Notes: generated by a model from the sequence alone, not told the origin. A stretch of 64,000 bases of DNA from Nemertoderma westbladi (GCA_032718475.1 JAUCBJ010003471.1:12830-76829), one strand, 5' to 3'. Shown: positions 25,501 to 49,500, counted from the stretch's first letter. Program-made: numbers and translations.

Positions 25501-28500
25501 GACCCCAAATATAATTATTCAAACACCAAAACAAATTTTACAACACCAAAAACTTCAATTTAGGGAGAGGAGCAGGTTACAGCGGCATGTTATTTTAACC
25601 AAAACAATAAACTAAGCACAATAGAACAGGTTACACTTTTATTTTTGAGAATAATCCGCTGTTAATTGCGTCGAATTTCCCCTGGAGAGAGATGAATTTT
25701 TATTACGTCCAGTTTCCCCCCCTATCTGAAAACTTCAGTACTGCCGTAATACTGAAACCTAATAACAGAATAAGTAATAGGCCATAAGCAATAGGCCTAT
25801 CGGTACGAATACTGTAACTGAAGTATGGCAACTGACCAAAGCGTAGTTAATATATAATATTTGGTGCTGGAATAATTTTTTTAGGTTGACAAGTAATTAT
25901 TTTTGGGGGATGAATAATTGTTTTTGGGGGTAGAATAATTGTTTTTGGGGGATGAATAATTGTTTTTGGGGAATCAATAATTGTTTTTGGGGGATGAATA
26001 ATTGTTTTTGGGGATTAATAATTGTTTTTGGTGAGAAGGATATTGAAAATTGGGGGATGTGAATTGGTGCTACAAAAAATATATTTGGTGCAAAATAATT
26101 TATTTTGGTGTTAAATCATCTAATTTGGGGTGGCATTCAATTAGTGGCGATAGTTTACTAACTCTACATAATAATTATGTGTAAATCCGGTACAGTGAGT
26201 GCTGCAACTGTGTGCGACGTCAGGTAAGCTTTGCCTACTGCGGGCGAGCCTGAGTCCGGGACTCGCGATCCGCCCGTCCCCGACACGACCCGTCCGCGTA
26301 TTCCCAATCCTTACACTAGTAGGAACACATCTTGAATTGACGCTTGGGATTAGTTAATGAGCTATATTTTGATTGGACGTTGAAATCATGTAAGGAATGG
26401 AGAGAGGGGGTCGAACTAGTGTAAGGAGTTTATACTCAGTAGGTAGGTAGAAAGTGTTACAAACGCTGTAAGGAATGGAGAAATTGGGTGAAATCATGTA
26501 AGGATTATCTGCCTATTAAACGGTTCATTGTGAGGTGACAGTAAAAATATATACGAATAACAATATACAGTATTCAGAGTGGGAAACGTTGTATAAGGAA
26601 TCGTTTTACAGAGCATTCTCCATGATTTTTCTGATGGAAAAGATTGTAGTAATAGAGTAGCTTTATTGACAGTATTTACTAGTGAAATTTATTCATTTGA
26701 TGTTCATATTTAAAAGCATTTCACAATTTGTAAACATAAATATTCCAATGAAATAAACTCTTAATTTTCAAATGATGTTTAGTATTTGTTCGATTGGCAT
26801 GTATGTTCATCAACAGGTTTCTACGGCGCTTTTTAGCGCGTTAAGACATATCAAGTACCATGAGGTCGGCCAGCAAGCATCTGTTTACTTCCTGTTGTAA
26901 GAGCTACTCGTTGGCGCGCTAGTGCAGATGACTGCACACGAATAGCAAATAGACTATTCCTAAGCAAACTTACAGTCAAACAGATGGACTCTGTGTAAAA
27001 AAGGAATGTATCCCTAGACCCTAGTAGTAAATTTTCCAATTGTTTCAGGCAACCAGGCGCGCTTACGCGCGCCTGGTTGCCAACTAACAATATAATAATA
27101 TGTTCACAATAAATTATTAAAAAGGCAATTTTTCAAGCGCTCAACTGCACATGTACACTACTGTATAACTAAAAAGTCATTCAGGAGGCCAGATTTCCAG
27201 GAACTTACTGTAATAGACATTCAATTCCATTGAATCCAGGGAAAGAGTTTGTGTTGTATTCTGTGAAAGGAGCATCAGCTGGATATAATGTTATTTGCGA
27301 GAGAGATCCCAATCTATAACTTGGCAATCACTCAAATCCATTCAGCCGAATACAACAGTAGAGAATTGATTCTGGGTTACAACTAATAAGCAATCAATGA
27401 CAAATTCGCGTTGATTTGCACACCGACGTCTAATAATTGGATGAAGTGTGTTCGAGAGCAACGGATATTGAGCTCAACATGTTAAGATCTTACATATTCT
27501 TAATTATCTCGAGAATTAATTAATTAATTAACGTGTAACTTTCCTATTCGATGGCCGATACACATATAAACCACTACACAAAGTCTCGTAACGATTCACC
27601 GGAGCGTTTAAGCGGAGATACAGCTACGACAAACATACAACATTGACAATCTATTTGTATTATAGATACTAGAGCAACCCTGTATAAACCATAACAATTC
27701 TATTATAGGCCTACTGACTAGCTAATGTCACCTGCTGCTTGCATACTCTTCTAATACTGTTGGTATAATAACCCTTACATGATTTCACCCATTTTCTCCA
27801 TTCCTTACAGCGTTTTGAACACTTTGTCTCTACCTGCTATCGCTATCTACAGTAAGTGAAACAAAACCCTTACACTAGTTCGACCCCTCTCTCCATTCCT
27901 TACATGATTTCAACGTCCAATCAAATAATAGTTTATTAACCAATCCCAGGCTACAATTCAAGATGTGTTCCTACTAGAGTAAGGATTGGGAATACGCGAC
28001 CCGTCCACACCGTCGCCGACACGTCCATTATCCTTTCAAACGCGGACTCGAGAGGTACCTAAACCTAGTCCATGACTGAATGAGCAATTTCGTTTTGAAT
28101 TTCCCGCCATTTGGAATTTATCCAATATGTGCTTTTATATTTTACACTGGGCAGTTATTTTTCGTAATAGTATTATTAGAAGACTGTCAGGACGTCTCAC
28201 TGTAAAAGTATTCACTATTTATCTATGTATGTCTATCGGGTGAACTCATCCGAAGCTATAGCTCGAATCGACGCAGCTCAACCCCAGGATGTGGAAAAAA
28301 AGTTTAAAAAAAAATTATTAAATTGTTTCTTTTTTATTTCGAAAAATAGCCCCATTAACACCATTGCCATAGACTCAACGATAGAAACACCAGCTGCTAG
28401 TACTCATGTGGGCCTAGTAAGCTACTACAGTACTATTTATTGAATGGATAGCCCAAACTGCAGAGAAGTATATTACTTGCTAAATTTATTACTCTCTCAC

Positions 28501-31500
28501 TCTATCCCAGACAAGTAAGAAAACATCAACTGTTCTGTTAGTTTGTAATGTATTAATTACCCCGCCAGCTGAATAGCTCTTCCCAGTTAATCCTATGGGA
28601 ATATCTATAAGGTTACTCACTGCTCTGTTAGGTGAGAGGCCAGCGATTGAATTTTGAGCACTGGGCCGTTCAAATGTTTCATAGGTTAATAATGAAATTT
28701 AGGGGCTGGGATTACTCTCTTTCAGACTGTAAATAAAGCAATGGGGTGGGACCCAACTACACTAAGTTTGTCTATGGACGGTCTTCTTAGTCAGTCAGCT
28801 TTTCTAGTTATTAAAGCGTTAACGTTGGTACCGTAAATGTGAAACTAACAGTGCAGTGCAACTGCTATCCATAATAACAATAATAGGGAAGTACAGTTTT
28901 ATCCCTTTCGATGGGCATGCAATATATGGCAACCCCGGGACCGTATACTGAAGAGAAAACGAAAACTTCCACGAAAGTGGTACTTCGGTAAAATGTGAAA
29001 CGAAATACTACAGTACATGCCTACCGCGCGATTAGGTACCGGTACCACTCCTCAGGGGCGGATCCAGGAATTTCTTAAGGGGGGGGCTTAAAATTTTTCA
29101 TAGTAACAATCAAATGTATTTAATTATAAATATTAAAATATAACCAAAACAAACAAAATCAGACATTTATTGTAATAGATGATATGATACAATGAGTAAA
29201 TTAATGGGCGCAAAATGACACTTTATTTCACCTGCGGTCAATTTGTGCAGGAGATCACTTTTTCACTTGCGGATAATTATTGGACCACTATCTGAATACG
29301 CTAGCTAGGCATAGTGAAAATTTCTAAATTAATTGTATGCGACGATTTTGTCGCTTGGCATAAATATTAATAATGGCATAAATATATGGCATACATCTAT
29401 ATTATAAAAAGTGGCTCGTGGGAATGTCATTGACGGCCATTCGGGCCTTATGGCAATAATGTCGGAAATTCCGCATTGCGATGATAAATTTGGGGGGGGG
29501 GGGGTGTTCTTAAGCACCTTTGGGCACTTTTTCGGTATTAGGGCCCCATTTTCCCCATTTTTTGGGTAAGTGTAATTCAGTTTTACTGCATATTACCAGT
29601 TAGCTAACAATTATTTATTGTTTGAAATATACTTGCTGTCATATTTTCTGCTATATAATTATAACTACTAGCTACAACTGTAGCTATGTACTAGTAGCTA
29701 CAACAAGCTCACGAAAGTTCAATCGTTCATTTGGAAACATTATAACTAGCTAATACATTATAAAATGTTCTAGAATGTGTTGTTTCCATGAAACTAGTGA
29801 GCGACACTTTTTAAAAAAAATTTTTAAAAAATACTAGCATTATACGATAAAAAATCTTTTTGCTAGCTAGTATTTTTAGAAATTATTCATTTCATTGAAG
29901 AATATATTAATGACCAAAATAATTTCCAAAAATTACTAGCTAGTAAAAAATCAAGTATCATGGGATGGAAGACTGGGGGGATTTATTTGTAAAGAGGCTG
30001 GGGCTAACTACAGTAGAGATCAGAAGGTGGAGAAGGTTTATTACTTTTTCTTAGACCACAGGAGGCATGGGATTATGTGAATCCAATCTGGTCGGGCTGC
30101 TAATGTAACTTTGACAAATTTTACCTTGCCTGAGAGTACTTTTTCAAAAAAGAGAATATAAAAATGACCCTTTTCTCAAAGGGCAGCTTATTGGAACTGT
30201 GCTACTGTATAAATCAGTAAAAATTTTCTTTATCATTACTTATGTATTTTTTTAAAAGGGGGGGGGCTAAAGCCCCTTAGCCCCCCCCTTAGATCCGCCA
30301 CTGCCACTCCTGGTAGAAGCAGCAGTAAAGCAAAGGAGGCAACTTTTAAGAAATTGCCATACTTTAAGCAATCCACCATGCTTTTATATATTTTTCACAT
30401 TAGGGGACATTGTTAATATATTTTTTAAATTGAGCGCTCAAGGTACTTTTGATTTGATTGTCTGGCCTGAAATCCCGGCCTATCACGGCCCTAGTGCTAG
30501 TATTATTGAGAAGGATACAAAACTATACGAATAATTTAAGATACGAAACGAAAACGTTTCGTATACACAACCTCTAAAATCTGATTATATTACGATATGA
30601 ATAGATAATATGAAATATTACATTTTAGATACAGTATTATTCAATTTTAAAGGTTTTATTGTTATGTCGGTACAGGTACACCAATTAGGCATTTTTGAAT
30701 TACTCGCCAAACAAGATCAACTAATCAAATCAAAAATAACATGCTGGCTCATAGACAGATACCTCAAGATACAACAAATATATTTCACAATGTCTCTTTA
30801 GGGGCTTTGTGCAATCAGATATTTACACATTTTACATTTATGGACTGTGTACCTCTACAATGTCGGCGACTTTGGTAGATTTTCGATATGAACGGTTTAA
30901 TAAATATTGTAATACTTGTGTGTAATGCGCTTTACTGTGTGCTTATTGCGTTGTTTGTTTTTGTTACACGGGCGAATAGTGACGATTGAAGTTCGCTGAG
31001 CAATAAGCCTAAATCATTTGCTGTACAATAAAAAGTTCACTTTGTCACACCTGAGCCTACACCAACCGGGCCCCCACCATTATAGACCTACACCACCCGG
31101 GCCCCCACCATTACTTACACCAGCAGGGTCCCCACCATTATAGACCTACACCACCCGGGCCCCCACCATTACTTACACCAGCCGGGCCCCCACCATTACT
31201 AACACCAGCCGGTCCCCCACCATTATAGACCTACACCACCCGGGCCCCCACCATTACTTACACCAGCCGGGCCCCCACCATTAAGACCTACACCACCCGG
31301 GCCCCCACCATTACCAACACCAGCCGGGCCCCCACCATTATAGACCTACACCACCCGGGCCCCCACCATTACTTACACCAGCCGGGCCCCCACCATTAAG
31401 ACATACACCACCCGGGCCACCACCATTACTTACACCAGCCGGGCCCCCACCATTATAGACCTACACCACCCGGGCCCCCACCATTACTTACACCAGCCGG

Positions 31501-34500
31501 GTCCCCACCATTATAGACCTACACCACCCGGGCCCCCACCATTACTTACACCAGCCGGGCCCCCACCATTATAGACCTACACCAGCCGGGCCCCCACCAT
31601 TATAGACCTACACCAGCCGGGCCCCCACCATTACTTACACCAGTCGGGCCCCCACCATTACTTACACCAGCCGGGCCCCCACCACTATACGTACACCAGC
31701 CGGGCCCCCACCATTAGACCTACACCACCCGGGCCCCCACCATTACCTACACCACCCGGGCCGGGCCCCCACCATTAGACCTACACCACCCGGGCCCCCA
31801 CCATTATAGACCTACACCAGCCGCCCCCCCCCCCCACCATTACCTACACCAGCCAGGCCCCCACCATTACCTACACCAGCCGGGCCCCCACCATTACCTA
31901 CACCAGCCGGGCCCCCACCATTACCTACACCAGCCGGGCCCCCACCATTACCTACACCACCCGGGCCCCCACCATTATACATACACCAGCCGGGCCCCCA
32001 CCATTATACATACACCAGCCGGGCCCCCACCATTATACATACACCACCCGGGCCGGGCCCCCACCATTAGACCTACACCAGCCGGGCCCCCACCATTATA
32101 CCTACACAAGCCGGCCCCCCACCATTATACCTACACCAGCCGGGCCCCCACCATTACCTACACCAGCCGGGCCCCCACCATTACCTACACCAGCCGGGCC
32201 CGCACCATTACCTACACCAGCCGGGCCCCCACCATTACCTACACCATCCGGGCCCCCACCATTATACGTACACCAGCCGGGCCCCCACCATTAGACCTAC
32301 ACCACTCGGGCCCCCACCATTATACCTACACCAGCCGGGCCGGGCCCCCACCATTACCTACACCAGCCGGGCCCCCACCATTACCTACACCACCCGGGCC
32401 CCCACCATTACCTACACCAGCCGGGCCCCCACCATTATACGTACACCAGCCGGGCCCCCACCATTAGACCTACACCACTCGGGCCCCCACCATTATACCT
32501 ACACCAGCCGGGCCCCCACCATTATACGTACACCAGCCGGGCCCCCACCGTTATAGACCTACACCAGCCGGGCCCCCACCGTTATAGACCTACACCACCC
32601 GGGCCCCCACCATTACCTACACCAGCCGGGCCCCCACCATTACCTACACCAGCCGGGCCCCCACCATTACCTACACCACCCGGGCCCCCACCATTACCTA
32701 CACCAGCCGGGCCCCCACCATTACCTACACCATCCGGGCCCCCACCATTATACCTACACCAGCCGGGCCCCCACCATTATACGTACACCAGCCGGGCCCC
32801 CACCGTTATTGACCTACACCAGCCGGGCCCCCACCATTATACCTACACCAGCCGGGCCCCCACCATTATACCTATACCAGCCGGGCCCCCACCATTAGAC
32901 CTACACCAGCCGGGCCCCCACCATTATACGTACACCAGCCGGGCCCCCACCATTATACGTACACCAGCCGGGCCCCCACCGTTATAGACCTACACCAGCC
33001 GGGCCCCCACCATTATACCTACACCAGCCGGGCCCCCACCATTATACCTACACCAGCCGGGCCCCCACCATTACCTACACCACCCGGGCCCCCACCATTA
33101 CCTACACCACCCGGGCCCCCACCATTACCTACACCAGCCGGGCCCCCACCATTACCTACACCAGCCGGGCCCCCACCATTATACCTATACCAGCCGGGCC
33201 CCCACCATTAGACCTACACCACCCGGGCCCCCACCATTAAGACCTACACCACCCGGGCCCCCACCATTACCTACACCACCCGGGCCCCCACCATTAAGAC
33301 CTACACCACCCGGCCCCCCACCATTAGACCTACACCACCCGGGCCCCCTCCATTAGACCTACACCACCCGGGCCGGGCCCCCACCATTAGACCTACACCA
33401 CTCGGGCCCCCACCATTAGACCTACACCACCCGGGCCCCCACCATTAAGACCTACACCACCCGGGCCCCCACTATTACCTACACCACCCGGGCCCCCACC
33501 ATTAAGACCTACACCACCCGGCCCCCCACCATTAGACCTACACCACCCGGGCCCCCACCATTAAGACCTACACCACCCGGCCCCCCACCATTAGACCTAC
33601 ACCACCCGGGCCGGGCCCCCACCATTAGACCTACACCACCCGGCCCCCCACCATTAGACCTACACCACCCGGCCCCCCACCATTAGACCTACACCACCCG
33701 GGCCCCCACCATTAGACCTACACCACCCGGGCCGGGCCCCCACCATTAAGACCACCTACACCACCCGGGCCCCCACCATTAGACCTACACCACCCGGGTC
33801 CCACCATTAGACCTGCACCACCCGGGCCCCCACCATTACCTACACCACCCGGGCCCCCTCCAATAGACCTACACCACCCGGGCCCCCACCATTAGACCTA
33901 CACCACCCGGGCCCCCACCATTAGACCTACACCACCCGGGCCGGGCCCCCACCATTAAGACCACCTTCACCACCCGGGCCCCCACCATTAGACCTAGACC
34001 ACCCGGGTCCCACCATTAGACCTACACCACCCGGGCCCCCACCATTACCTACACCAGCCGGGCCCCCACCATTACCTACACCACCCGGGCCCCCTCCAAT
34101 AGACCTACACCACCCAGGCCCCACCATTAAGACCTACACCACCCGGGCCCCCACCATTAGACCTACACCACCCGGGCCCCACCATTAGACCTACACCACC
34201 CGGGCCCCCACCATTAGACCTACACCACCCGGGCCCCCACCATTAGACCTACACCACCCGGGCCCGGGCCCCCACCATTAGACCTACACCACCCGGGCCC
34301 CCACAATTATAGACCTACACCATCCGGCCCCCCACCATTAGACCTACACCACCCGGGCCCCCACCATTAGACCAACACCACCCGGGCCCCCTCCAATAGA
34401 CCTACACCACCCGGGCCCCCACCATTAAGACCTACACCACCCGGGCCCCCACCATTACCTACACCACCCGGGCCCGGGCCCCCACCATTAGACCTACACC

Positions 34501-37500
34501 ACCCGGGCCCCCACCATTACCTACACCAGCCGGGCCCCCACCATTACCTACACCACCCGGGCCCCCTCCAATAGACCTACACCACCCAGGCCCCACCATT
34601 AAGACCTACACCACCCGGGCCCCCACCATTAGACCTACACCACCCGGGCCCCACCATTAGACCTACACCACCCGGGCCCCCACCATTAGACCTACACCAC
34701 CCGGGCCCCCACCATTAGACCTACACCACCCGGGCCCGGGCCCCCACCATTAGACCTACACCACCCGGGCCCCCACCATTATAGACCTACACCATCCGGC
34801 CCCCCACCATTAGACCTACACCACCCGGGCCCCCACCATTAGACCAACACCACCCGGGCCCCCTCCAATAGACCTACACCACCCGGGCCCCCACCATTAA
34901 GACCTACACCACCCGGGCCCCCACCATTACCTACACCACCAGGGCCCCCACCATTAGACCTACACCACCCGGGCCCAACCATTAGACCTACACCACCCGG
35001 GCCCCCACCATTAGACCTACACCACCCGGGCCCACACCATTAGACCTACACAACCCGGCCCCCCACCATTTGACCTACACGACCCGGGCCCCACCATTAG
35101 ACCTACACCACCCGGCCCCCCACCATTAGACCTACACCACCCGGCCCCCCACCATTAGACCTACACCACCCGGGCCCCCACCATTAGACCTACACCACCC
35201 GGGCCGGGCCCCCACTAGTAGACCTACATCACCCAGGCCGGGCCCCCACCATTAGACCTACACCAATTTCCATCCCCTTACCTTACTAAATAGAATCGAA
35301 CATACTTTCTTACTTAAAAGTGACAATTGAAAATAAAGAAAAAAACGATATGTAAGAATTTGACAAATCTCATTAAAATATGATAGAATAATGAGACCGT
35401 ATTATATATAATACGATAATTATACTTCATACATGTGCATAAAAAGTAATACTTTATATGCGATGATCAGGGGTGCAAGTTACACGAACGAACACAGCGA
35501 AGGAGTGTAAATAAAGAAAAGCCGGTGAGACAGAATAAAAATGTGTCTAGTTTTATTACAAAACTGTTTCATTGCGGTACTCCAGCAATTAAATAGCAAG
35601 ATTTATTTATGTTTATTGGCTAACTTCGGAAACAACAGCAATATTTCACTATTAGTGAATAATTATCAACATTTAAATGTTATCTATTTCGTGTAGGAAC
35701 AACAGTTTCTTAAATAGCGAACTTTTATATTTCTTTAAATATAACTTATATTAGTTATAGTTAGATATTAGTTATAGTTAGATATTGGTCATAGTTAGAT
35801 ATTGGTCATAGTTAGATATTAGTTATAGTTAGATATTAGTTAGATATTAGTTATAGTTAGATATTAGTTATAGTTAGATATTAGTTATAGTTAGATATTA
35901 GTTATAGTTAGATATTAGTTATAGTTAGATATTAGTTATAGTTAGATATTAGTTATAGTTAGATATTAGTTATAGTTAGATATTAGATATAGTTAGATAT
36001 TAGTTATAGTTAGATATTAGTTATAGTTAGATATTAGATATAGTTAGATATTAGTTATAGTTAGATATTAGTTTTAGTTAGATATTAGTTATAGTTAGAT
36101 ATTAGTATATAGTTAGATATTAGTTATAGTTAGATATTAGTTATAGTTAGATATTAGTTATAGTTAGATATTGGTCATAGTTAGATATTGGTCATAGTTA
36201 GATATTAGTTATAGTTAGATATTTAGTTAGATATTAGTTATAGTTAGATATTAGTTATAGTTAGATATTAGTTATAGTTAGATATTAGTTATAGTTAGAT
36301 ATTAGTTATAGTTAGATATTAGTTATAGTTAGATATTAGTATATAGTTAGATATTAGTTATAGTTAGATATTAGTTATAGTTAGATATTAGTTATAGATA
36401 GATATTAGTTTTAGTTAGATATTAGTTATAGTTAGATATTAGTTATAGTTAGATATTAGTTAGATATTAGTTATAGTTAGATATTAGTTATAGTTAGATA
36501 TTAGATATAGTTAGATATTAGTTATAGTTAGATATTAGTTATAGTTAGATATTAGTTATAGTTAGATATTAGATATAGTTAGATATTAGTTATAGTTAGA
36601 TATTAGTTATAGTTAGATATTAGATATAGTTAGATATTAGTTATAGTTAGATATTAGTTATAGTTAGATATTAGTATATAGTTAGATATTAGTTATAGTT
36701 AGATATTAGTTTTAGTTAGATATTAGTTATAGTTAGATATTAGATATAGTTAGATATTAGTTATAGTTAGATATTAGTTATAGTTAGATATTAGTTATAG
36801 TTAGATATTAGTCATAGTTAGATATTGGTCATAGTTAGATATTAGTTATAGTTAGATATTAGTTATAGTTAGATATTAGTTATAGTTAGATAATTTAGGT
36901 ATTTATAGTTAGATATTAGTTATTAGTTAGATATTAGTTATAGTTAGATATTAGTTATAGTTAGATATTAGATATAGTTAGTATAGATAGTTGTAGTTAT
37001 ATTAGATAGGATAGTTAGTATATTATGTTAGATATTAGTTATAGTTAGATATTAGTTATAGTTAGATATTAGATATAGTTAGATATTAGTTATAGTTAGA
37101 TATTAGTTATAGTTAGATATTAGTTATAGTTAGATATTAGTTATAGTTAGATATTAGTTATAGTTAGATATTAGTTATAGTTAGATATTAGTTATAGATA
37201 GATATTAGTTTTAGTTAGATATTAGTTATAGTTAGATATTAGTTATAGTTAGATATTAGTTATAGTTAGATATTAGTTATAGTTAGATATTAGTTATAGT
37301 TAGATATTAGTTATAGTTAGATATTAGTTATAGTTAGATATTAGTTATAGTTAGATATTAGTTATAGTTAGATATTAGTTATAGTTAGATATTAGTTATA
37401 GTTAGATATTAGTTATAGTTAGATATTAGTTATAGTTAGATATTAGTCATAGTTAGATATTAGTTATAGTTAGATATTAGTTATAGTTAGATATTAGTTA

Positions 37501-40500
37501 TAGTTAGATATTAGTTATAGTTAGATATTAGTTATAGTTAGATATTAGTTATAGTTAGATATTAGTTATAGTTAGATATTAGTTATAGTTAGATATTAGT
37601 TATAGTTAGATATTAGTTATAGTTAGATATTAGTCATAGTTAGATATTAGTTATAGTTAGATATTAGTTATAGTTAGATATTAGTTATAGTTAGATATTA
37701 GTTATAGTTAGATATTAGTTATAGTTAGATATTAGATATAGTTAGATATTAGTTATAGTTAGATCTTAGTTATAGTTAGATATTAGTTATAGTTAGATAT
37801 TAGTTATAGTTAGATATTAGTTATAGTTATATATTAGTTATAGTTAGATATTAGTTATAGTTAGATATTAGTTATAGTTAGATATTAGCTATAGTTAGAT
37901 ATTAGTTATAGTTAGATATTAGTTATAGTTAGATATTAGTTATAGTTAGATATTAGTTATAGTTAGATATTAGTTATAGTTAGATATTAGTTATAAATAA
38001 AAACAATTATTATTTCACCATTAAACGAAGTAGATTATTCTCTAAAACTTTCAACTTAATGATTTCCCATGAGCTTACAATTTTCTGAAATATGCTACTC
38101 CTACTAACTAAACTAACGGTATCGTAATAAGAGCATTGCTAGGTCTATTTACTAGATTCACTCCAAATTGATTATATGAAAAGTTGGCCTCGGAGCCTGG
38201 TAACCCATAATATACCGCATAATCCTAGCAGTCTGTAACATCTGATTTCTTGCCAACTACTTCCATACTAATATTGTCTTCCGCTAAACACGAATTGGCT
38301 TTCCGTTTACCAACCACTCTGCTTTCCTCGATAAATGAGTGCTGGATAATATCAAATAGAACTGCGGTTGAATGGAACCGGTAGAAAATGGGAAAAGGCA
38401 AAGTTGTATATCGTATGATAGCCCAGGTGCGTCGGTCGAAGTAGCTGAGAATTCCAGGATGGTAAATGGGTCTCTCCATCTCGCTAATGCTGTGCATCCA
38501 AAAACACAAGTTCAGAAAGAACACCAAAGTTATCAGTTGTTTGTCGCCACAATTACGGCGTCCCATTGGTCCGCATATGCGGTGACCACGTTTCATTGCT
38601 TCCAATAGAAAGATAGCCTGAATAGAGACTTGGAGAACTTCAAATATAAATATGGCGAGTGATGATGGGTTGAATGGGTTATCTGGAAGCACAAGAATGA
38701 TAGCGTAGCAAATGGTAATTCCACTGGTAACAGTTATTAACAGAGAGAACAGAAGTAAAACAACGTCCATAAGTTCATGAAATTCCGCGTGTCGATGGTG
38801 AAACCTAATCAAACTCATAAGTACAATAACGATGGAGACTACAGACACAATCATTAGAGAAAGTAGAACTGCGTGGTAGATAGGTAGATATATGTAAATA
38901 TTGTCAACACTAAGTAGAAATCTGCAACAGACAAGTAAGGCGAAATCGCCAATAACTATAGCAAATCCAGGAAGTAGGCCTCCTCGGTTGGATTTAACCA
39001 ACTGTTTTACTACCTTCCAGTGCATTTTTACTCGGTAATTCGAGGAGCCAAAAGGTTTATTTACACCGATATTCATCCACATCATAAGGAAGAAGCATGC
39101 GATGGCGACCTTGAACTCTATGGACATCGCGATTAGCGAGGCGTATGAATGGTCCACCAAATCCGATACATCCTCCTGCAAGAGCCCAAAGAGACCCAAT
39201 ACATTATTCTGTTTGTGACTGTCGGCAACCCCTGCCATCGCTTCGGACGCAACCAAACCGAACCAACCGATAATGTTGACGGACACGAGATGGAGGAGAC
39301 AGAATCTCGAGGAAGTGGCTCGCGTTCGGGAGACACGCGTCTCGGAGTAGAGACACACAACCAGTGTCTGAACGACGGCGAGTATGCCCTGCAGCACATA
39401 CCACAACACATAAGTGATACCCTGGTGGAAGGATTCCCGAGTTAAGATAAGTACAGGTTTACGGACGCAGTGGATAACTTCCCCCAATCCGAACACAACT
39501 GTAGCTACTTTCAGATAAATGTTACCGGTGTGCGGGTCAAACGGGTTGTTGCCTTGTCTACGGTCTGGGTAGAGAACGCCCAGCAGATAGATTCCCGTTG
39601 CTATGCCCACAGATGTTATGATCAGTAAGAAAACGACAAGGTTATCCCAGAGACTCGGGTCCATGCTAGCCATTATCACCATGGCAACCCCGAGAGAAGC
39701 AAGGAATCCCCCGTAAAAGACGCTGGTAGCTATTGACAGCCAAGTTGTAAAGTCATTGTCTGCCCTTCCCTTTACTGGAAGTGGTATTACGTCACCAACT
39801 GCTTCAGTATTCATCATTGTGATATGAGACAATAATTATAGTAAATCAATATAACAAAAAGCCTATATAACATTGAAGTAAATTAAAATGTAACAGATGG
39901 CCGCAGCCAGATTCAATTTAAGATTCATAAGCAGATCAATTTGATTGGCCGGCTCAGTTGGCTTATCACATAGGCCTAGCATAATTCTAGTCTTACACAT
40001 ATACTACAGAAATCTGATTTGCAGGGCTTAGATATTATTAATGCAAAATGTAATTAAATTGTGGACTTTACCACAAGTTCTTAGTTCAGTGTGCGCTGCA
40101 TTGCATTTTGTTTCTAGGATTAAAAAATGCTGGTACCTTTTCACTTCGTCACACTAATTAGTATTTATCGTCAGCTACATTCGTTAGAGAGGCATCGAGT
40201 CATGACATGATGGACTGCAATATGTTACACTAGCAGCAAGACCATTGAAACACAAACCGGTATTAATTAGTATTCATAGGTCACGTCATTGAGGGTGAGT
40301 TTCCCAAATCATGGCTTTGCTTCATTTAACACTGTGTTTAACTACTAGCGTAAATGCTTCGGTAAAGTTGAGTTCTATGAGTGGGTTTAATGAAATGTTA
40401 AATTCGTTCCTATCCCTCACCCGACCCATTCGGTGATTACAGCCATTCGAAAGACGACACCACACGGTACACAATAGTATTTGAATTCCCCTCCCTTTAT

Positions 40501-43500
40501 TGTTAATAATCGCAATTAATTTCATTGGCTGTTTATTTCACCTGGAATACTAAATAGTAGGTCAGAATAGAATCAATTTTCTTGGAATTTTTTCAATTTA
40601 CTATAATATTATTATAGAATTATTATTACAATATAATATTATTAATATAATAATATTATTAGACACGTCACGTCATATAATATGTAATACTAATTAATAA
40701 GATGGTAATACAAATACAATAAGTAACAACTCATTCAACTCTGAAAGAATAGCCTTTTAGAGGTAAAATATACCTAGCAATTAATAACGTATGGAACATA
40801 AGTGTTGGTGTTTAGTCTATATAGAGCGGCAACCATTTGGTACCAAACTGAATATTCCAATTAGAGTCAATAAACCGAAGTAATACCATGGTATACAGGC
40901 TATTCGATGTACCGTAATAATTAAATTACCCATGGTAAAAACCCTTTAGATCTGAATACTTCAACCATAATAAATAGCTTTTAATATTACCCATGGTACA
41001 CGACACCTCATTTCCAATATAGAATAATAATACCCATGGTACACCCCCTTTTAATATCCATGGTAAACCCCCTTTCCAATATAGAATAATAATACCCATG
41101 GTACACCCCCTTTTAATATCCATGGTACACCCCCTTTTAATATCCATGGTACACCCCCTTTCCAATATAGAATAATACCCATGTTACACCCCCTTTCCAT
41201 TATAGAATAATAATACCCATGGTACAGCCCCTTTCCTTGTGTCTGGTTTGTAATTCAGGGGCAATAGAAGATGAACTAAACTTTTTATTGATATGTCCGG
41301 CTTACAGAGAACTCAGATCAGACAGAATATATAAAACGGCATTTCCACATAATCCCGACCGAATACAAATTTCGTAAACTACTTTTATCTCAGTCCAGAC
41401 TTGAAATCAAAAATCTATATATTTTCACATATAAGGGATTTAAACTTCGTAATAACTTATTGGCGTAGATCTTTTCAAATTGTGTACTGTTATCGTTACT
41501 TTACAATCTTTTAGACAATCATTACTTTATTTCGGCGCTGGAGTTACAAACTGTAAATATGTTTAATAATTTGGTGTTCCATGTATCCTCCCTGTATCAG
41601 GTGCACTGTGCAGTTATTTATATTATGTATATTCAACTCACAGCCCGAATAGTGCTAGTTGCTTCTATTAAACGAATTATGTTTGTTGTTCCAATATAGA
41701 ATAATAATACCCATGGTACAGCCCCTTTCCAATATAGAATAATACCCACCCATGTTACACCACCTTTCCAATATAGAATAATACCCATGGTACACCCCCT
41801 TTTAATATCCATGGTACACACCATTTCCAATATAGCATAATAATAATACCCATGGTACACCCCCTTTCCAATATAGCATAATACTATCCGTGGTACACCG
41901 CCTTTCCAATATATTATAATAATATCCATGGTATACACCATTTCTAATCCATGTAGCATAACCGCCTACCCATAATTTATTATTGGTTTATTAGAGGGTT
42001 GAGCACAGTGGCAGCAGATGATGGTATTAAACAGATGGGAGGCCACGAGGAGATTAATTGCGGACATACAAGGTATCGGGTAGTATAGTATTTCCAGGTC
42101 CAGGTTTACCTTTTACCTGACCAGCTAGCTGAATGGTTAGAGCGTCAGATTTCCAACCCGGGGGTCTCCAGTTCGATCCCACCTGTATGTCATCTCCGAC
42201 TTTGCAAAGCTGGACCCAAAAAAAGTTATAATAATGTGAAACAACTCATTCACCCATAACACCAATAGTAAATTATAAAAATATACCGGACGCATTTCCC
42301 TATGCGTGTTACTGTTCAGCCTAAATTAGTAGTTACTAGAGTGTAGAATTAATCATTGTGGCCGTAATGGTTCATGATTAATATACGCCACCCTTTCGTT
42401 GTACCGAGTGGTTAAAGACGGCCAAGTAGCCTAGAGTTTAGGATTGAGCACAGTGGCAGCATATGATGATGGTAGTGACAGACGGGAGCTCATGAGGTGG
42501 TCAATTGCGGACATACAAGGTATAATTAAGAATTCCAAGGGTACACCCCCTTTCCATTATAGAATAATAATATCCATGGTAAACCCCATTTCCATTATAG
42601 AATAATAATACCCATGAAACAGATAATTTGAAAACTTCATAGCTAACCAATGTTGCAATGGGCCCAGATCCTAATGGAAAAATATCGGATAAAATACGCA
42701 GATGAGAAATAAAATAAATTTCGCCGACTCGGGAAATAGTTAGTGAACTATTTCAAGTCCTTTTAATCCACTTTTATTAATAACTGCAATTATTGATTAC
42801 CGATACCACCTTTGATTTGTTTCATTTCATACAAATAGATAAGGAAGAGGCAATAAGATAGCTATATTGAGTCTTCGATCATGTTGCATACACACATCGC
42901 TTTATTGTCGAAGGGTTGCCACACTTTATTTACCACTTTTCAATGTTATGTAATTGTTTCACAAAGTTTGCGGATTCTTTAGTCTCTAATTTAAGGAAGC
43001 CCTCCATAGGATTTTTGGCTAATTTGTGTTTATATAACTAACAAGCCGCCAATGGTGCAAACCTTAGACGTATTGGTATTGGACTGAAATGTGGCTTCTC
43101 TGATCCTCGTATGTTGTCGGTAAATATGTGTAAAAATACAAAATGGTACATTAATGATAATAACATATACCTAATTAATGTGTGTAAGGAGCTGCTGAAG
43201 TGTAAAACAAATGAATTTTTCGTGCAGGGTTTCTCGGGTTTCTCGGACTCAGAATTGAATTATATGTTAAAATTTGTGTTTGCACACGGTAATTTTTATT
43301 ATTGCTTATTGTCAGTCAGTTTTTTGTCCAGCACTCGAAAACATTGAAAGATTCGAGAATGAAAGTCAGCACTCAAAAACATTGAAAGATTCGAGAATGA
43401 AAGACAGCACTCCAAAACCTTGAAAGGTTCGAGAATGAAAGCCAGCACTCCAAAACCTTGAAAGGTTCGAGAATGAAAGTCAGCACTCCAAAACCTTGAA

Positions 43501-46500
43501 AGGTTCGATAATGAAAGTCAGCACTCCAAAACCTTGAAAAGTTCGAGAATGGAAGTCAACACTCCAAAACCTTGAAAGGATTGATAATGAAAGTCAGCAC
43601 TCCAAAACCTTGAAAAGTTCGAGAATGGAAGTCAGCACTCCAAAACCTTGAAAGGATTGATAATGAAAGTCAGCACTCCAAAACCTTGAAGGGTTCGACA
43701 ATGAAAGTCAGCACTCCAAAACCTTGAAATGATTGAGAATGAAAGTCAGCACTCCAAAACCTTGAAAGGTTCGAGACTGAAAGTCAGCACTCCAAAACCT
43801 TGAAAAGTTCGAGAATGAAAGACAGCACTCCAAAACCTTGAAAAGTTCGAGAATGGAAGTCAGCACTCCAAAACCTTGAAAAGTTCGAGAATGGAAGTCA
43901 GCACTCCAAAACCTTGAAAAGTTCGAGAATGGAAGTCAGCACTCCAAAACCTTGAAAAGTTCGAGAATGGAAGTCAGCACTCCAAAACCTTGAAAAGTTC
44001 GAGAATGAAAGTCAGCACTCCAAAACCTTGAAAGGTTCGATAATGAAAGTCAGCACTCCAAAACCTTGAAAAGTTCGAGAATGGAAGTCAGCACTCCAAA
44101 ACCTTGAAAGGATTGATAATGAAAGTCAGCACTCCAAAACCTTGAAAAGTTCGAGAATGGAAGTCAACACTCCAAAACCTTGAAAGGATTGATAATGAAA
44201 GTCAGCACTCCAAAACCTTGAAAAGTTCGAGAATGGAAGTCAGCACTCCAAAACCTTGAAAGGATTGATAATGAAAGTCAGCACTCCAAAACCTTGAAGG
44301 GTTCGACAATGAAAGTCAGCACTCCAAAACCTTGAAATGATTGAGAATGAAAGTCAGCACTCCAAAACCTTGAAAGGTTCGAGACTGAAAGTCAGCACTC
44401 CAAAACCTTGAAAAGTTCGAGAATGAAAGACAGCACTCCAAAACCTTGAAAAGTTCGAGAATGGAAGTCAGCACTCCAAAACCTTGAAAAGTTCGAGAAT
44501 GGAAGTCAGCACTCCAAAACCTTGAAAAGTTCGAGAATGGAAGTCAGCACTCCAAAACCTTGAAAAGTTCGAGAATGGAAGTCAGCACTCCAAAACCTTG
44601 AAAAGTTCGAGAATGAAAGTCAGCACTCCAAAACCTTGAAAGGTTCGATAATGAAAGTCAGCACTCCAAAACCTTGAAAAGTTCGAGAATGGAAGTCAGC
44701 ACTCCAAAACCTTGAAAGGATTGATAATGAAAGTCAGCACTCCAAAACCTTGAAAAGTTCGAGAATGGAAGTCAGCACTCCAAAACCTTGAAAGGATTGA
44801 TAATGAAAGTCAGCACTCCAAAACCTTGAAGGGTTCGACAATGAAAGTCAGCACTCCAAAACCTTGAAATGATTGAGAATGAAAGTCAGCACTCCAAAAC
44901 CTTGAAAGGTTCGAGACTGAAAGTCAGCACTCCAAAACCTTGAAAGGATTGAGAATGAAAGACAGCACTCCAAAACCTTGAAAGGATTGAGAATGAAAGA
45001 CAGCACTCCAAAACCTTAAAGGTTCGAGAATGAAAGACAGCACTCCAAAACCTTAAAGGTTCGAGAATGAATGTCAGCACTCCAAAACCTTGAAAAGTTC
45101 GAGACTGAAAGTCAGCACTCCAAAACCTTGAAAGGATTGAGAATGAAAGTCAGCACTCCAAAACCTTAAAGGTTCGAGAATGAATGTCAGCACTCCAAAA
45201 CCTTGAAAAGTTCGAGACTGAAAGTCAGCACTCCAAAACCTTGAAAGGTTCGAGACTGAAAGTCAGCACTCCAAAACCTTGAAAGGTTCGAGACTGAAAG
45301 TCAGCACTCCAAAACCTTGAAGGGTTCGACAATGAAAGTCAGCACTCCAAAACCTTGAAATGATTGAGAATGAAAGTCAGTACTCCAAAACCTTGAAGGT
45401 TCTAGAATGAAAGTCAGTACTCCAAAACCTTGAAGGTTCGAGAATGAAAGTCAGCACTCCAAAACCTTAAAGGTTCGAGAATGAAAGTCAGCACTCCAAA
45501 ACCTTGAAAGGTTCGAGAATGAAAGTCAGCACTCCAAAACCTTGAAATGATTGAGAATGAAAGTCAGCACTCCAAAACCTTGAAATGTTCGAGAATGAAA
45601 GTCATCACTCCAAAACCTTGAAAGGATTGATACTGAAAGTCAGCACTCCAAAACCTTGAAAGGATTGATACTGAAAGTCAGCACTCCAAAATCTTGAAAG
45701 GATTGAGAATGAATGTCAGCACTACAAAACCTTGAAAGGATTGATAATGAAAGTCAGCACTCCAAAACCTTGAAAGGTTCGAGAATGAAAGTCAGCACTC
45801 CAAAACCTTGAAAGGATTGATACTGAAAGTCAGCACTCCAAAACCTTGAAAGGATTGAGAATGAATGTCAGCACTCCAAAACCTTGAAATGATTGAGAAT
45901 GAAAGTCAGTACTCCAAAACCTTGAAATGATTGAGAATGAAAGTCAGTACTCCAAAACCTTGAAAGGTTCGAGACTGAAAGTCAGCACTCCAAAACCTTG
46001 AAAGGTTCGAGAATGAAAGTCAGTACTCCAAAACCTTAAAGGTTCGAGAATGAAAGTCAGCACTCCAAAACCTTGAAATGATTGAGAATGAAAGTCAGCA
46101 CTCCAAAACCTTGAAAGGTTCGAGACTGAAAGTCAGCACTCCAAAACCTTGAAATTGTTCGAAAATGAAAGTCAGTACTCCAAAACCTTAAAGGTTCGAG
46201 AATGAAAGTCAGCACTCCAAAACCTTGAAAGGATTGAGAATGAATGTCAGCACTCCAAAACCTTGAAATGTTCGAGATTGAAAGTCAGCACTCCAAAACC
46301 TTGAAATTGTTCGAGAATGAAAGTCAGTACTCCAAAACCTTAAAGGTTCGAGAATGAAAGTCAGCACTCCAAAACCTTGAAATGTTCGAGAATGAAAGTC
46401 AGCACTCCAAAACCTTGAAATTGTTCGAGAATGAAAGTCAGTACTCCAAAACTTTAAAGGTTCGAGAATGAAAGTCAGCACTCCAAAACCTTGAAAGGAA

Positions 46501-49500
46501 TGAGAATGAAAGTCAGCACTCCAAAACCTTGAAAGGATTGAGAATGAATGTCAGCACTCCAAAACCTTGAAAGGATTGATAATGAAAGTCAGCACTCCAA
46601 TACCTTGAAAGGATTGAGAATGAATGTCAGCACTCCAAAACCTTGAAAGGATTGATAATGAAAGTCAGCACTCCAAAACCTTGAAAGGTTCGAGAATGAA
46701 AGTCAGCACTCCAAAACCTTGAAATTGTTCGAGAATGAAAGTCAGTACTCCAAAACCTTGAAGGTTCGAGAATGAAAGTCAGCACTCCAAAACCTTAAAG
46801 GTTCGAGAATGAAAGTCAGCACTCCAAAACCTTGAAATGTTCGAGAATGAAAGTCAGTACTCCAAAACCTTGAAGGTTCGAGAATGAAAGACAGCACTCC
46901 AAAACCTTGAAGGTTCGAGAATGAAAGTCAGCACTCCAAAACCTTAAAGGTTCGAGAATGAAAGTCAGCACTCCAAAACCTTGAAGGTTCGAGAATGAAA
47001 GTCAGCACTCCAAAACCTTAAAGGTTCGAGAATGAAAGTCAGCACTCCAAAACCTTGAAGGTTCGAGAATGAAAGTCAGTACTCCAAAACCTTGAAAGGA
47101 TTGAGAATGAATGTCAGCATTCCAATCCAAAACCTTGAATGGATTGATAATGAAAGTCAGCACTCCAAAACCTTGAAAGGTTCGAGAATGAAAGTTAGCA
47201 CTCCAAAACCTTGAAAGGTTCGAGAATGAAAGTCAGCACTCCAAAACCTTGAAAGGTTCGAGAATGAAAATCAGCACTCCAAAACCTTGAAAGGATTGAT
47301 AATGAAAGTCAGCACTCCAAAACCTTGAAAGGATTGATAATGAAAGTCAGCACTCCAAAACCTTGAAAGGTTCGAGAATGAAAGTCAGCACTCCAAAACC
47401 TTGAAAGGATTGATACTGAAAGTCAGCACTCCAAAACCTTGAAAGGATTGATACTGAAAGTCAGCACTCCAAAACTTTGAAAGGTTCGAGAATGAAAGTC
47501 AGCACTCCAAAACCTTGAAAGGATTGATACTGAAAGTCAGCACTCCAAAACCTTGAAAGGTTCGAGAATGAAAGTCAGCACTCCAAAACCTTGAAAGGAT
47601 TGATACTGAAAGTCAGCACTCCAAAACCTTGCAAGGTTCGAGAATGAAAGTCAGCACTCCAAAACCTTGAAAGGTTCGAGAATGAAAGTCAGCACTCCAA
47701 AACCTTGAAAGATTCGAGAATGAAAGTCAGCACTCCAAAACCTTGAAATGATTGAGAATGAAAGTCAGCACTCCAAAACCTTGAAAGGTTCGAGACTGAA
47801 AGTCAGCACTCCAAAATCTTGAAAGGACTGAGAATGAATGTCAGTACTCCAAAACCTTGAAGGGTTCGAGAATGAGAGTCAGCACTCCAAAACCTTGAAA
47901 GGTTCGAGAATGAAAGTCAGCACTCCAAAACCTTGAAGGTTCGAGAATGAAAGACAGCACTCCAAATTCTTGAAAGGTTCGAGACTGAAAGTCAGCACTC
48001 CAAAATCTTGAAATGTTCGAGAATGAAAGTCAGCACTTCAAAACATTGAAAGGATTGAGAATGCAAGTCAGCACTCCAAAACCTTGAAATGTTCGAGACT
48101 GAAAGTCAGCACTCCAAAACCTTGAAGGGTTCGAGACTGAAAGTCAGCACTCCAAAACCTTGAAGGGTTCGAGACTGAAAGTCAGCACTCCAAAACCTTG
48201 AAAGGATTGATAATGAAAGTCAGCACTCCAAAACCTTGAAAGGTTCGAGACTGAAAGTCAGCACTCCAAAACCTTGAAATTGTTCGAAAATGAAAGTCAG
48301 CACTCCAAAACCTTGAAGGGTTCGAGACTGAAAGTCAGCACTCCAAAACCTTGAAGGGTTCGAGACTGAAAGTCAGCACTCCAAAACCTTGAAAGGATTG
48401 ATAATGAAAGTCAGCACTCCAAAACCTTGAAGGGTTCGAGACTGAAAGTCAGCACTCCAAAACCTTGAAGGGTTCGAGACTGAAAGTCAGCACTCCAAAA
48501 CCTTGAAAGGATTGATAATGAAAGTCAGCACTCCAAAACCTTGAAATTGTTCGAAAATGAAAGTCAGCACTCCAAAACCTTGAAGGGTTCGAGACTGAAA
48601 GTCAGCACTCCAAAACCTTGAAAGGATTGATAATGAAAGTCAGTACTCCAAAACATTGAAAGGATTGATAATGAAAGTCAGCACTCCAAAACCTTGAAAG
48701 GTTCGAAACTGAAAGTCAGCACTCCAAAACCTTGAAAGGTTCGAGACTGAAAGTCAGCACTCCAAAACCTTGAAAAGTTCGAGAATGGAAGTCAGCACTC
48801 CAAAACCTTGAAAAGTTCGAGAATGAAAGTCAGCACTCCAAAACCTTGAAAGGTTCGATAATGAAAGTCAGCACTCCAAAACCTTGAAAAGTTCGAGAAT
48901 GGAAGTCAGCACTCCAAAACCTTGAAAGGATTGATAATGAAAGTCAGCACTCCAAAACCTTGAAAAGTTCGAGAATGGAAGTCAGCACTCCAAAACCTTG
49001 AAAGGATTGATAATGAAAGTCAGCACTCCAAAACCTTGAAGGGTTCGACAATGAAAGTCAGCACTCCAAAACCTTGAAATGATTGAGAATGAAAGTCAGC
49101 ACTCCAAAACCTTGAAAGGTTCGAGACTGAAAGTCAGCACTCCAAAACCTTGAAAGGATTGAGAATGAAAGACAGCACTCCAAAACCTTGAAAGGATTGA
49201 GAATGAAAGACAGCACTCCAAAACCTTAAAGGTTCGAGAATGAAAGACAGCACTCCAAAACCTTAAAGGTTCGAGAATGAATGTCAGCACTCCAAAACCT
49301 TGAAAAGTTCGAGACTGAAAGTCAGCACTCCAAAACCTTGAAAGGATTGAGAATGAAAGTCAGCACTCCAAAACCTTAAAGGTTCGAGAATGAATGTCAG
49401 CACTCCAAAACCTTGAAAAGTTCGAGACTGAAAGTCAGCACTCCAAAACCTTGAAAGGTTCGAGACTGAAAGTCAGCACTCCAAAACCTTGAAAGGTTCG

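What the first reader, a model, noticed from the sequence alone, without database searches (positions are those of the whole stretch)
35550..39900. Same-strand nested otopetrin gene puts a poly(A) site inside an intron of the polyadenylation factor CSTF3
Seen: an intact single-exon otopetrin ORF lies on the same (minus) strand as CSTF3, inside its 34-kb intron (19194-53455). Known: nested genes are more often antisense, and CstF-77/su(f) autoregulates through an intronic poly(A) site in human and Drosophila (in an earlier intron). Inference: the otopetrin 3' end (candidate AGTAAA at 38148-38153, or AATAAA at 35612-35617 and 35602-35607 beyond the satellite) is also in the CSTF3 pre-mRNA. It could truncate CSTF3 inside the HAT domain, giving a new feedback route or chimeric transcripts.
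Basis: partly seen in the sequence, partly recalled or inferred. Interest (0 to 1): 0.7.

Follow-up and report, generated by a model that had tools for sequence, protein, structure and literature searches.

The report
Otopetrin gene nested in CSTF3 intron
An intact, very divergent proton-channel (otopetrin) gene with an unbroken reading frame lies on the same strand inside a 34-kb, repeat-swollen intron of the mRNA-tailing factor gene CSTF3; it is likely an ordinary, separately transcribed nested gene, and its own tailing signal is probably not a control switch for the host.

Summary
The anatomy is real. A 530-codon otopetrin frame (39817-38225, minus) has the family fold and the Glu/Asp/His proton relay. 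It sits in a 34,262-bp intron between two CSTF3 exons that match human residues 425-458 and 460-477 and join in frame.

The proposed feedback route is not supported. The intron holds 40 AATAAA on the CSTF3 strand, 10 of them before the otopetrin start codon. The intron's donor is strong (8 of 9 consensus bases), and it is a late intron, whereas the known CstF-77 feedback site lies in intron 3 behind a very weak donor. No plausible in-frame fusion acceptor exists.

If CSTF3 is ever cut short here, the better candidate lies upstream of otopetrin: acceptor 40541, a stop, then AATAAA 40501 with a GU-rich tract. This resembles known nested-gene interference (H13/Mcts2), but I picked it after seeing the data.

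Side finding: a 49-bp minisatellite (53937-58577) repeats the preceding CSTF3 exon end plus its donor about 65 times, a known type (F7). No transcript data were examined. Verdict: new member of a known kind; low interest.

The parts
38225..39817 (-). Otopetrin ORF, 530 aa, uninterrupted; E234, D351, H482 = CeOTOP8 E325, D439, H567
53456..53558 (-). CSTF3 exon (human residues 425-458), donor ATG|GTGAGT
19194..53455 (-). CSTF3 intron, 34,262 bp, phase 1, 48% satellite, 40 sense AATAAA
19124..19193 (-). CSTF3 exon (human 460-477 matched)
13406..13502 (-). CSTF3 exon (human 483-513)
13025..13123 (-). CSTF3 exon, in frame with neighbours
   Evidence: splice signals and frame only; no Pfam hit
11809..11941 (-). 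CSTF3 exon, in frame with neighbours
   Evidence: no Pfam hit
11547..11702 (-). CSTF3 exon (human 600-643)
10939..11092 (-). CSTF3 exon, low-complexity linker
   Evidence: no Pfam hit
10679..10736 (-). CSTF3 last coding exon to TAA
39864..39948 (-). Candidate otopetrin promoter: CCAAT (39948-39944) and TATATA (39869-39864); the TATA overlaps a possible acceptor at 39862
   Evidence: inferred, chance of such a pair 2.3%
40440..40560 (-). Candidate cryptic CSTF3 terminal exon upstream of otopetrin: acceptor 40541, stop after 6 codons, AATAAA 40537 and 40501, GU-rich tract; 40541 is also a possible donor (CAG|GTGAAA) of an otopetrin 5' UTR intron
   Evidence: predicted, chosen after seeing the data
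38148..38153 (-). AGTAAA, 72 nt after the otopetrin stop, no GU-rich downstream tract
35552..35617 (-). Three AATAAA (35617, 35607, 35557); 35557 has the best U-rich downstream tract and is the likelier canonical otopetrin signal (about 2.7-kb 3' UTR)
   Evidence: inferred
35748..37995 (.). 17-bp satellite, about 133 copies, no AATAAA on the sense strand
43329..53347 (.). 38-bp satellite, about 264 copies, no AATAAA or ATTAAA on the sense strand; holds a 1,151-bp exact repeat at 4,210-bp offset
31056..35205 (.). 29-bp GC-rich satellite, about 143 copies
53937..58577 (-). 49-bp minisatellite copied from the end of the preceding CSTF3 exon (human codons 409-424) plus its donor; 65 MAG|GTRA donors, 19 perfect MAG|GTRAGT; split by a 1.39-kb insert at 54616-56007

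Best explanation
An intact, highly divergent otopetrin with an unbroken reading frame sits on the same strand inside a 34-kb CSTF3 intron that is half satellite DNA, and it is likely a separately transcribed proton-channel gene whose poly(A) site CSTF3 transcripts would mostly read through. Shown: the ORF, its family, the retained Glu/Asp/His relay, the nesting in this assembly, and 40 sense-strand AATAAA in the intron. Predicted: the 12-helix otopetrin fold. Inferred: otopetrin has its own promoter just upstream (CCAAT 39948, TATA 39869, or a 5' UTR exon ending at 40542), is used in few cells, and ends at 35557 or at a variant signal before the 17-bp satellite. CSTF3 pre-mRNA, committed to splicing by a strong donor, passes this signal as it must pass the many other hexamers. 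The placement is most likely a tolerated by-product of an intron-less copy landing in, or the intron swelling around, a repeat-rich region, not a regulatory device.
For: Otopetrin identity and integrity: Pfam E 1.5e-30; 5 of 5 PDB sequence hits and 12 of 12 Foldseek hits at E<=0.001 are otopetrins, model pLDDT 82.6. E234/D351/H482/P474/F478 align with CeOTOP8 E325/D439/H567/P559/F563. GC3 is 0.48, against 0.54 for CSTF3 exons and 0.36 GC for the intron. Host: 8 exons in frame with GT-AG sites, four matched to human CstF-77 in order. Signals not special: 10 AATAAA + 8 ATTAAA precede the ATG, 40 AATAAA in all. For 35617 and 35607 the GU-type score is reached by 63 and 98 of 152 non-satellite AATAAA in the window, and AGTAAA 38153 has 0 TGT/GTG downstream. 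The donor scores 8 of 9, tied for best of 7; strengthening the human intron-3 donor cut intronic pA use by about 90% or abolished it (PMC3708835 section 7). Nested genes favour the longest intron with only a slight orientation bias (PMC11694760 section 5); about 41% of human nested genes are single-exon (as cited in PMC3192792). Repeat inflation affects the next intron upstream too.
Against: Expression, start site and 3' end are untested. Tandem nested genes can cause exonisation and cryptic polyadenylation of the host upstream of them (PMC3192792 passages), and a matching candidate exists at 40541-40501. The protein keeps only 31 of 54 columns that are at least 80% conserved among 81 relatives; only 1 of the 81 scores lower, so relaxed selection is possible. 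AATAAA is not depleted on the sense strand (40 vs 27, P 0.14), though depletion is reported as general in introns (PMC5499120 passages), which fits a young or mis-assembled interval. Long introns favour intronic pA in the human reporter.
Confidence: 0.68

Rival explanations
1. Nested-gene interference (H13/Mcts2 type): where the otopetrin promoter is active it stalls CSTF3 polymerase, and CSTF3 splices to a cryptic terminal exon at 40541 and is polyadenylated at AATAAA 40501, upstream of otopetrin, giving CstF-77 cut after residue 458 plus 6 residues.
For: 40501 has the richest GU tract of the 40 intronic AATAAA (13 GU-type trimers, 9 TGT/GTG; each reached by 2 of 152 window hexamers; background 1.0% and 0.07% of positions). 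It lies 684 nt before the ATG. An acceptor scoring 3.0 (true acceptors 1.4-9.0) lies 40 nt upstream, with an in-frame stop after 6 codons. Known cases put the host site upstream of the nested promoter (PMC3467052 passages; PMC3192792).
Against: The scoring measures were chosen after seeing the site. With 40 hexamers, 0.03-0.4 such sites are expected by chance, and 5 of 40 have an acceptor of that score within 150 nt. The acceptor model rests on 7 sites. 40541 reads equally well as a donor. There is no CpG island at the promoter (CpG o/e 0.36 at 39800-40100).
Confidence: 0.13
2. One reading: CSTF3 transcripts end at the otopetrin poly(A) site in a CstF-77-dependent way, forming a feedback loop.
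For: The site necessarily lies in the CSTF3 pre-mRNA. The intron (34.3 kb) is as long as human CSTF3 intron 3 (33.2 kb). 35557 has a U-rich downstream tract (lowest A content, reached by 2 of 152). A cut here would fall in the dimerising half of the HAT domain.
Against: Late intron (after residue 458) rather than intron 3; strong donor; 15.3-17.9 kb from the donor, and human intronic pA use falls as donor-to-site distance grows; 10 AATAAA come first; half the intron is satellite, so its size looks accidental.
Confidence: 0.04
3. Assembly artefact: the otopetrin island (38.0-43.3 kb) belongs elsewhere and was joined in through the satellites on both sides.
For: The island is bounded by 10-kb and 2.2-kb arrays. 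The 38-bp array has a 1,151-bp exact internal repeat. There is no sense-strand AATAAA depletion or T>A skew.
Against: Two wrong joins through two unrelated arrays would be needed. The window has no N, and neither the 17-bp nor the 38-bp array shares a 16-mer with the rest of the window. The undisputed 5.6-kb intron shows no T>A skew either.
Confidence: 0.07
4. The otopetrin is a recently silenced copy with an intact frame and no working 3' end.
For: Only 31 of 54 conserved columns kept, including loss of two conserved Cys columns and a Trp present in 81 of 81 relatives; no AATAAA in the 229 nt before the satellite.
Against: Neutral decay would give about 2.9 stops at 5% divergence from substitutions alone, yet the protein is only 20-34% identical to its 150 best relatives with the frame open and the relay intact.
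Confidence: 0.05
5. Otopetrin borrows the CSTF3 promoter and exons, as an alternative last exon or a fusion.
For: Same strand; an acceptor scoring 2.4 at 39862, 45 nt before the ATG.
Against: Splicing exon 53456 to 39862 gives a stop after 5 codons. All 12 phase-compatible AGs in codons 6-114 score -1.3 or lower, against 1.4-9.0 for true acceptors. Otopetrin would be a second cistron behind the CSTF3 coding part.
Confidence: 0.03

Closest known systems
Host/nested protein-coding gene pairs (PMC11694760, passages and section 5 read; PMC3192792, passages read)
   Same: Whole gene inside the host's longest visible intron; same orientation is common; single-exon nested genes are common.
   Different: The host is a core 3'-end processing factor; the organism is an unidentified animal with a fast-evolving otopetrin; no transcript support here.
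CstF-77 (CSTF3 intron 3; Drosophila su(f)) autoregulatory intronic poly(A) site (PMC3708835, passages and sections 6-7 read)
   Same: Same host gene; an intron of about 33-34 kb that contains poly(A) signals.
   Different: Known site: intron 3, donor at the 0.7th percentile, conserved UGUA/AUUAAA/GU elements, no protein product. Here: intron after residue 458, near-consensus donor, half satellite, candidates 13-18 kb from the donor. The equivalent 5' intron lies outside the window.
H13/Mcts2 and Herc3/Nap1l5 retrogene-linked alternative polyadenylation (PMC3467052, abstract, section 13 and passages read)
   Same: Mono-exonic gene in a host intron; a candidate host poly(A) site lies a few hundred bases upstream of the nested start (684 nt here; 200 bp before the Mcts2 promoter).
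   Different: Those are imprinted through a methylated CpG-island promoter, and Nap1l5 is antisense (that Mcts2 is sense is recalled). There the host stops upstream of the nested gene, not at its poly(A) site. No CpG island here.
Otopetrin proton channels: CeOTOP8, mouse OTOP2, zebrafish Otop1 (PMC11343839, passages read)
   Same: Predicted 12-helix fold, TM6 Glu, TM9 Asp, TM12 Pro/Phe/His, FYRFHS motif.
   Different: 16-19% identity in structural alignments; lacks two conserved Cys columns, the TM6 Pro (also absent in CeOTOP8) and the post-TM12 Trp; coding region uninterrupted, whereas mouse Otop2 is multi-exon (PMC3038909 passages).
Human F7 intron 7 37-bp VNTR spanning the exon/donor boundary (PMC1557585, abstract read)
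   Same: The 49-bp array repeats an exon end plus its 5' splice site into the next intron.
   Different: About 65 copies over 3.2 kb of array, interrupted by two insertions; each unit lacks about 5 nt of the inferred exon; the real exon is outside the window.

Membership tests
Otopetrin (PF03189) | Profile match above curated cut-off | tested here: met
   106.9 bits vs 27.8, E 1.5e-30
Otopetrin (PF03189) | 12-helix double-barrel fold | tested here: met
   Model from 82 sequences, pLDDT 82.6, 12 long helices; 12 of 12 hits at E<=0.001 are otopetrins
Otopetrin (PF03189) | Proton relay Glu (TM6), His (TM12), Asp (TM9) | tested here: met
   E234, H482, D351
Otopetrin (PF03189) | Other family-conserved columns | tested here: inconclusive
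   31 of 54 kept; the 81 relatives keep 29-54 (the relatives define the columns, which favours them)
Otopetrin (PF03189) | Proton-selective current | not testable with these tools
   needs expression and patch clamp
CSTF3 / su(f) | Colinear exons matching CstF-77 HAT-C and C-terminal regions | tested here: met
   human 425-458, 460-477, 483-513, 600-643; Pfam Suf above cut-off for two exons
CSTF3 / su(f) | Complete gene with 5' exons | not testable with these tools
   No Suf hit in 74 of 89 stop-free minus-strand frames in 53559-64000 (15 frames overlapping the long plus-strand ORF not sent); no genome held
Intronic nested gene | Entire ORF within one host intron | tested here: met
   (in this assembly)
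Intronic nested gene | Transcript independent of the host | not testable with these tools
   only motif support and lack of an in-frame acceptor
CstF-77 autoregulatory intronic pA | Located in an early intron (human intron 3) | tested here: not met
   the intron follows residue 458 of 717
CstF-77 autoregulatory intronic pA | Weak 5' splice site | tested here: not met
   ATG|GTGAGT, 8 of 9 to MAG|GTRAGT, tied best of 7 (simple match count, no MaxEnt)
CstF-77 autoregulatory intronic pA | Hexamer with upstream UGUA and downstream GU-rich element | tested here: not met
CstF-77 autoregulatory intronic pA | Conserved across species and responsive to CstF-77 level | not testable with these tools
   no orthologous locus reached
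Retrogene | Intron-free coding region in a family with multi-exon members | tested here: met
   mouse Otop2 multi-exon
Retrogene | Poly(A) remnant, target-site duplication, identifiable parent | tested here: inconclusive
   no A-tail seen by eye after the stop; no relative above 34% identity among the best 150
H13/Mcts2-type interference | Host poly(A) site shortly upstream of the nested promoter | tested here: inconclusive
   candidate 40501, selected after seeing the data
H13/Mcts2-type interference | CpG-island promoter under methylation control | tested here: not met
   GC 0.33, 3 CpG in 300 bp at 39800
F7-type donor minisatellite | Unit = exon end + 5' splice site | tested here: met
   4 of 4 PDB hits at E<=10 are CstF-77, aligned to 409-425, directly before the next exon (E 0.3-1.3, weak alone, convincing by position); 65 donors
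F7-type donor minisatellite | First unit overlaps the real exon; later donors silent | not testable with these tools
   real exon beyond 64000

The most novel reading that the evidence does not exclude
In cells that switch on this otopetrin, its promoter forces CSTF3 into a cryptic terminal exon just upstream (acceptor 40541, stop, AATAAA 40501 with GU tract). CstF-77 is then cut inside its dimerising HAT half, so that a nested acid-sensing channel lowers 3'-end processing activity and shifts poly(A) site choice genome-wide in its own cell type.
Probability: 0.06. Interest if true: 0.7.

Novelty: new member of a known kind. Interest (0 to 1): 0.22.

Why it matters
As it stands it adds one very divergent otopetrin and one more same-strand nested pair; I found no paper on this pair (9 listings with 3 of the 4 terms, none with both otopetrin and CSTF3). 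It is a convenient natural case for asking how a real poly(A) site is ignored inside a host pre-mRNA, in a gene known to be sensitive to such sites. If the interference model held, a cell-type-specific gene would control the dose of a core polyadenylation factor by position alone, which would be a new route to tissue-specific alternative polyadenylation.

Tried and rejected
RNA: no RNA holder listed for 38000-40000, so read laying could not be used; this says nothing about expression. No whole genome is held, so paralogues, the 5' CSTF3 exons and other assemblies could not be checked.

Homologue searches that led nowhere: word-index searches gave nothing for otopetrin (0 of 7,998 candidates) or for two CSTF3 pieces (0 of 16; 0 of 6). 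The metagenome scan gave 1 locus of 455 pattern matches, L001, a bacterial sequence matching the intron read-through part by chance. None of 5 window proteins is in the collection by exact sequence. The atlas gave otopetrin clusters but no usable taxon. The organism stays unidentified beyond 'animal'.

Other blanks: the single-sequence fold was unusable (pLDDT 42). No Rfam match or tRNA in the window. A satellite frame without the in-order unit missed CstF-77 in PDB and Pfam, and the peptide term was in 0 papers. Wood et al. 2008 (PMC2335310) is not held. No earlier notes on this genome.

Rejected ideas: an in-frame CSTF3-otopetrin fusion; a nearer duplicate of exon 53456-53558; ACTAAY arrays in the 17-bp satellite as a designed protein-binding sponge (7.8% of shuffled units carry the motif); the 65 repeated donors as U1 protection for the otopetrin region (they lie 14-19 kb upstream, against a reported range of about 0.5-1 kb, PMC5499120 passages). 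No supplements were read; Fig. S1/S3 of PMC3708835 may give the donor-to-site distance in human.


Full report
Observation. The minus strand carries an uninterrupted frame from ATG 39817 to TAG 38225, 530 residues. It matches Pfam Otopetrin at E 1.5e-30, and 5 of 5 PDB sequence hits are otopetrins. The exon at 53558-53456 matches human CstF-77 residues 425-458 and the exon at 19193-19124 matches 460-477. One split Glu codon fills the gap, and six more exons continue in frame with GT-AG sites to TAA at 10681-10679; two of these were matched to human 483-513 and 600-643. The intron between is 34,262 bp and 48% satellite. tblastn of the exon translation finds no nearer copy of the upstream exon, and 67 other intronic frames gave no Pfam hit above cut-off.

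The otopetrin. Counting along the alignment to CeOTOP8, E234, D351, P474, F478 and H482 correspond to E325, D439, P559, F563 and H567, the residues of the proton relay in PMC11343839 (passages). A full HMMER search found 400 relatives at E<=0.001, none at 1e-30, the best 150 at 20-34% identity. I aligned 81 of these 150, chosen mostly for near-full length. The model has pLDDT 82.6 and 12 long helices, and 12 of 12 Foldseek hits at E<=0.001 are otopetrins. Against this, the protein keeps only 31 of 54 columns conserved in at least 80% of those relatives, and only 1 of 81 keeps fewer. Its GC3 (0.48) is nearer the CSTF3 exons (0.54) than the intron GC (0.36), and neutral decay would put about 2.9 stops in the frame at 5% divergence. 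I infer a fast-evolving but working channel. Intron-free origin by retroposition is plausible (mouse Otop2 is multi-exon, PMC3038909 passages), but I saw no A-tail and found no parent.

Are the poly(A) signals special? No. The intron has 40 AATAAA and 14 ATTAAA on the CSTF3 strand; 10 and 8 of them lie between the donor and the otopetrin ATG, and one AATAAA lies inside the ORF. Scored for downstream GU content against all 152 non-satellite AATAAA on both strands of the window, 35617 is matched by 63 and 35607 by 98; AGTAAA 38153 has no TGT/GTG downstream. This species' signal usage is unknown: one neighbouring single-exon gene has none of four common hexamers within 1.1 kb of its stop.

Comparison with CstF-77 feedback. 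In PMC3708835 (passages and sections 6-7) the site is in intron 3, behind a donor at the 0.7th percentile, with conserved UGUA, AUUAAA and GU elements. A stronger donor cut its use by about 90% or abolished it, and use fell as donor-to-site distance grew. Here the intron is late, the donor ATG|GTGAGT matches 8 of 9 consensus bases and ties for best of 7, and the candidates lie 15.3-17.9 kb away. Retaining the intron would add 29 residues before a stop. Membership fails on three tested features; the claim 'works like it' is left at about 4%.

Fusion or shared promoter. The only acceptor-like site near the ATG (39862, score 2.4; true acceptors 1.4-9.0 in a model from 7 sites) gives a stop after 5 codons when joined to the CSTF3 exon, and all 12 phase-compatible AGs in codons 6-114 score -1.3 or lower. 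A TATAWA+CCAAT pair this close to a random point has a 2.3% chance, TATAWA alone 13%. An own promoter is the likelier reading, possibly with a 5' UTR intron from 40541 to 39863.

A better-founded alternative. In known host/nested systems the host is cut upstream of the nested promoter: the Mcts2 promoter lies 200 bp downstream of an internal H13 site (PMC3467052; abstract, section 13, passages), and tandem nested genes force exonisation with cryptic polyadenylation upstream (PMC3192792 passages). Here AATAAA 40501, 684 nt before the ATG, has the richest GU tract of the 40 (reached by 2 of 152 on two measures), with an acceptor 40 nt upstream and a stop after 6 codons. I chose the measures after noticing the site; 0.03-0.4 such sites are expected among 40, and 5 of 40 hexamers have such an acceptor nearby. 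There is no CpG island. I give detectable use 13% and a regulatory role 6%.

How unusual is the arrangement? Mouse and human nested genes prefer the longest intron and show only a slight opposite-strand bias (PMC11694760 section 5); an older count gives 63% opposite and 41% single-exon (cited in PMC3192792). A search for otopetrin, nested, intron and CSTF3 listed 9 papers with 3 of 4 terms and none with both gene names (listing only).

Assembly. The otopetrin island is flanked by a 10-kb and a 2.2-kb array. The 38-bp array has a 1,151-bp exact internal repeat, so its length is uncertain. Sense-strand AATAAA is not depleted (40 vs 27, P 0.14; ATTAAA 14 vs 29, P 0.03; pooled 54 vs 56), though depletion is reported as general (PMC5499120 passages). 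A misjoin would need two errors through unrelated arrays; I put it at 7%.

Side finding. The 49-bp minisatellite at 53937-58577, read on the CSTF3 strand, repeats the end of the preceding exon plus its donor. One unit read with X at a stop hit only CstF-77 chains (4 of 4 at E<=10, E 0.3-1.3), at residues 409-425, directly before the next exon. It holds 65 MAG|GTRA donors, 19 of them perfect. This is the F7 intron 7 type, where later donors stay silent (PMC1557585 abstract), and the scan's own notes list many such cases (unchecked). It shows that 53.9-58.6 kb is true CSTF3 intron and that repeat growth is general in this gene.

Verdict. Shown: an intact divergent otopetrin nested same-strand in a CSTF3 intron. 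Inferred: independent expression, with host read-through of its 3' end (0.68). New member of a known kind; interest 0.22.

Noticed in passing
window 53937-54615 and 56008-58577 (minus): 49-bp minisatellite made of CSTF3 codons 409-424 (about 5 nt shorter than the inferred exon) plus the donor; 65 donors. Most units also read as AG + 27 nt (9 codons) + GT, a potential in-frame micro-exon. A degenerate older copy lies at about 53840-53900.
   Followed up: partly
window 54616-56007: 1.39-kb non-coding insert in the 49-bp array with 14-bp imperfect terminal inverted repeats and a TA duplication, MITE-like (label from recall).
   Followed up: partly
window 58578-64000 (plus): Insert starting TG at the array edge, with a 289-bp tandem pair (60136-60709) and a 667-codon open frame 61998-63998 running off the window; looks like an LTR retrotransposon gag region by recall, but no Pfam or NCBIfam hit of note.
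   Followed up: partly
window 3532-4734 and 7598-8782 (minus): Tandem pair of single-exon membrane-protein genes (400 and 394 aa, 369 identical residues), GPCR-like by eye; no Pfam hit for either, and no PDB or NCBIfam hit for the one tested.
   Followed up: partly
window 43329-53347: 38-bp satellite begins 108 bp after the CSTF3 donor, has no AATAAA/ATTAAA on the sense strand over 10 kb, carries AAG|GTTTT 244 times, and has a 1,151-bp exact repeat at 4,210-bp offset (recent duplication or assembly overlap).
   Followed up: partly
window 35748-37995 (minus): 17-bp satellite, possibly in the otopetrin 3' UTR, carries ACTAAY (branch-point/STAR-type motif, recalled) 115 times; 7.8% of shuffled units do too.
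   Followed up: yes
window 23787-25084, 5646-6361, 26295-27998: Long inverted repeat pairs (477 bp at 93%, a 716-bp foldback at 75%, 232 bp at 84%), probably non-autonomous DNA transposons.
   Followed up: no
window about 20060-20140 and 42120-42210: Short stretches that look like reversed tRNA-derived SINE heads by eye; ARAGORN and Rfam found nothing.
   Followed up: partly
window 40978-42622: Irregular 24/38/62-bp repeat clusters upstream of otopetrin that supply most of the local ATTAAA and TGTA motifs.
   Followed up: no
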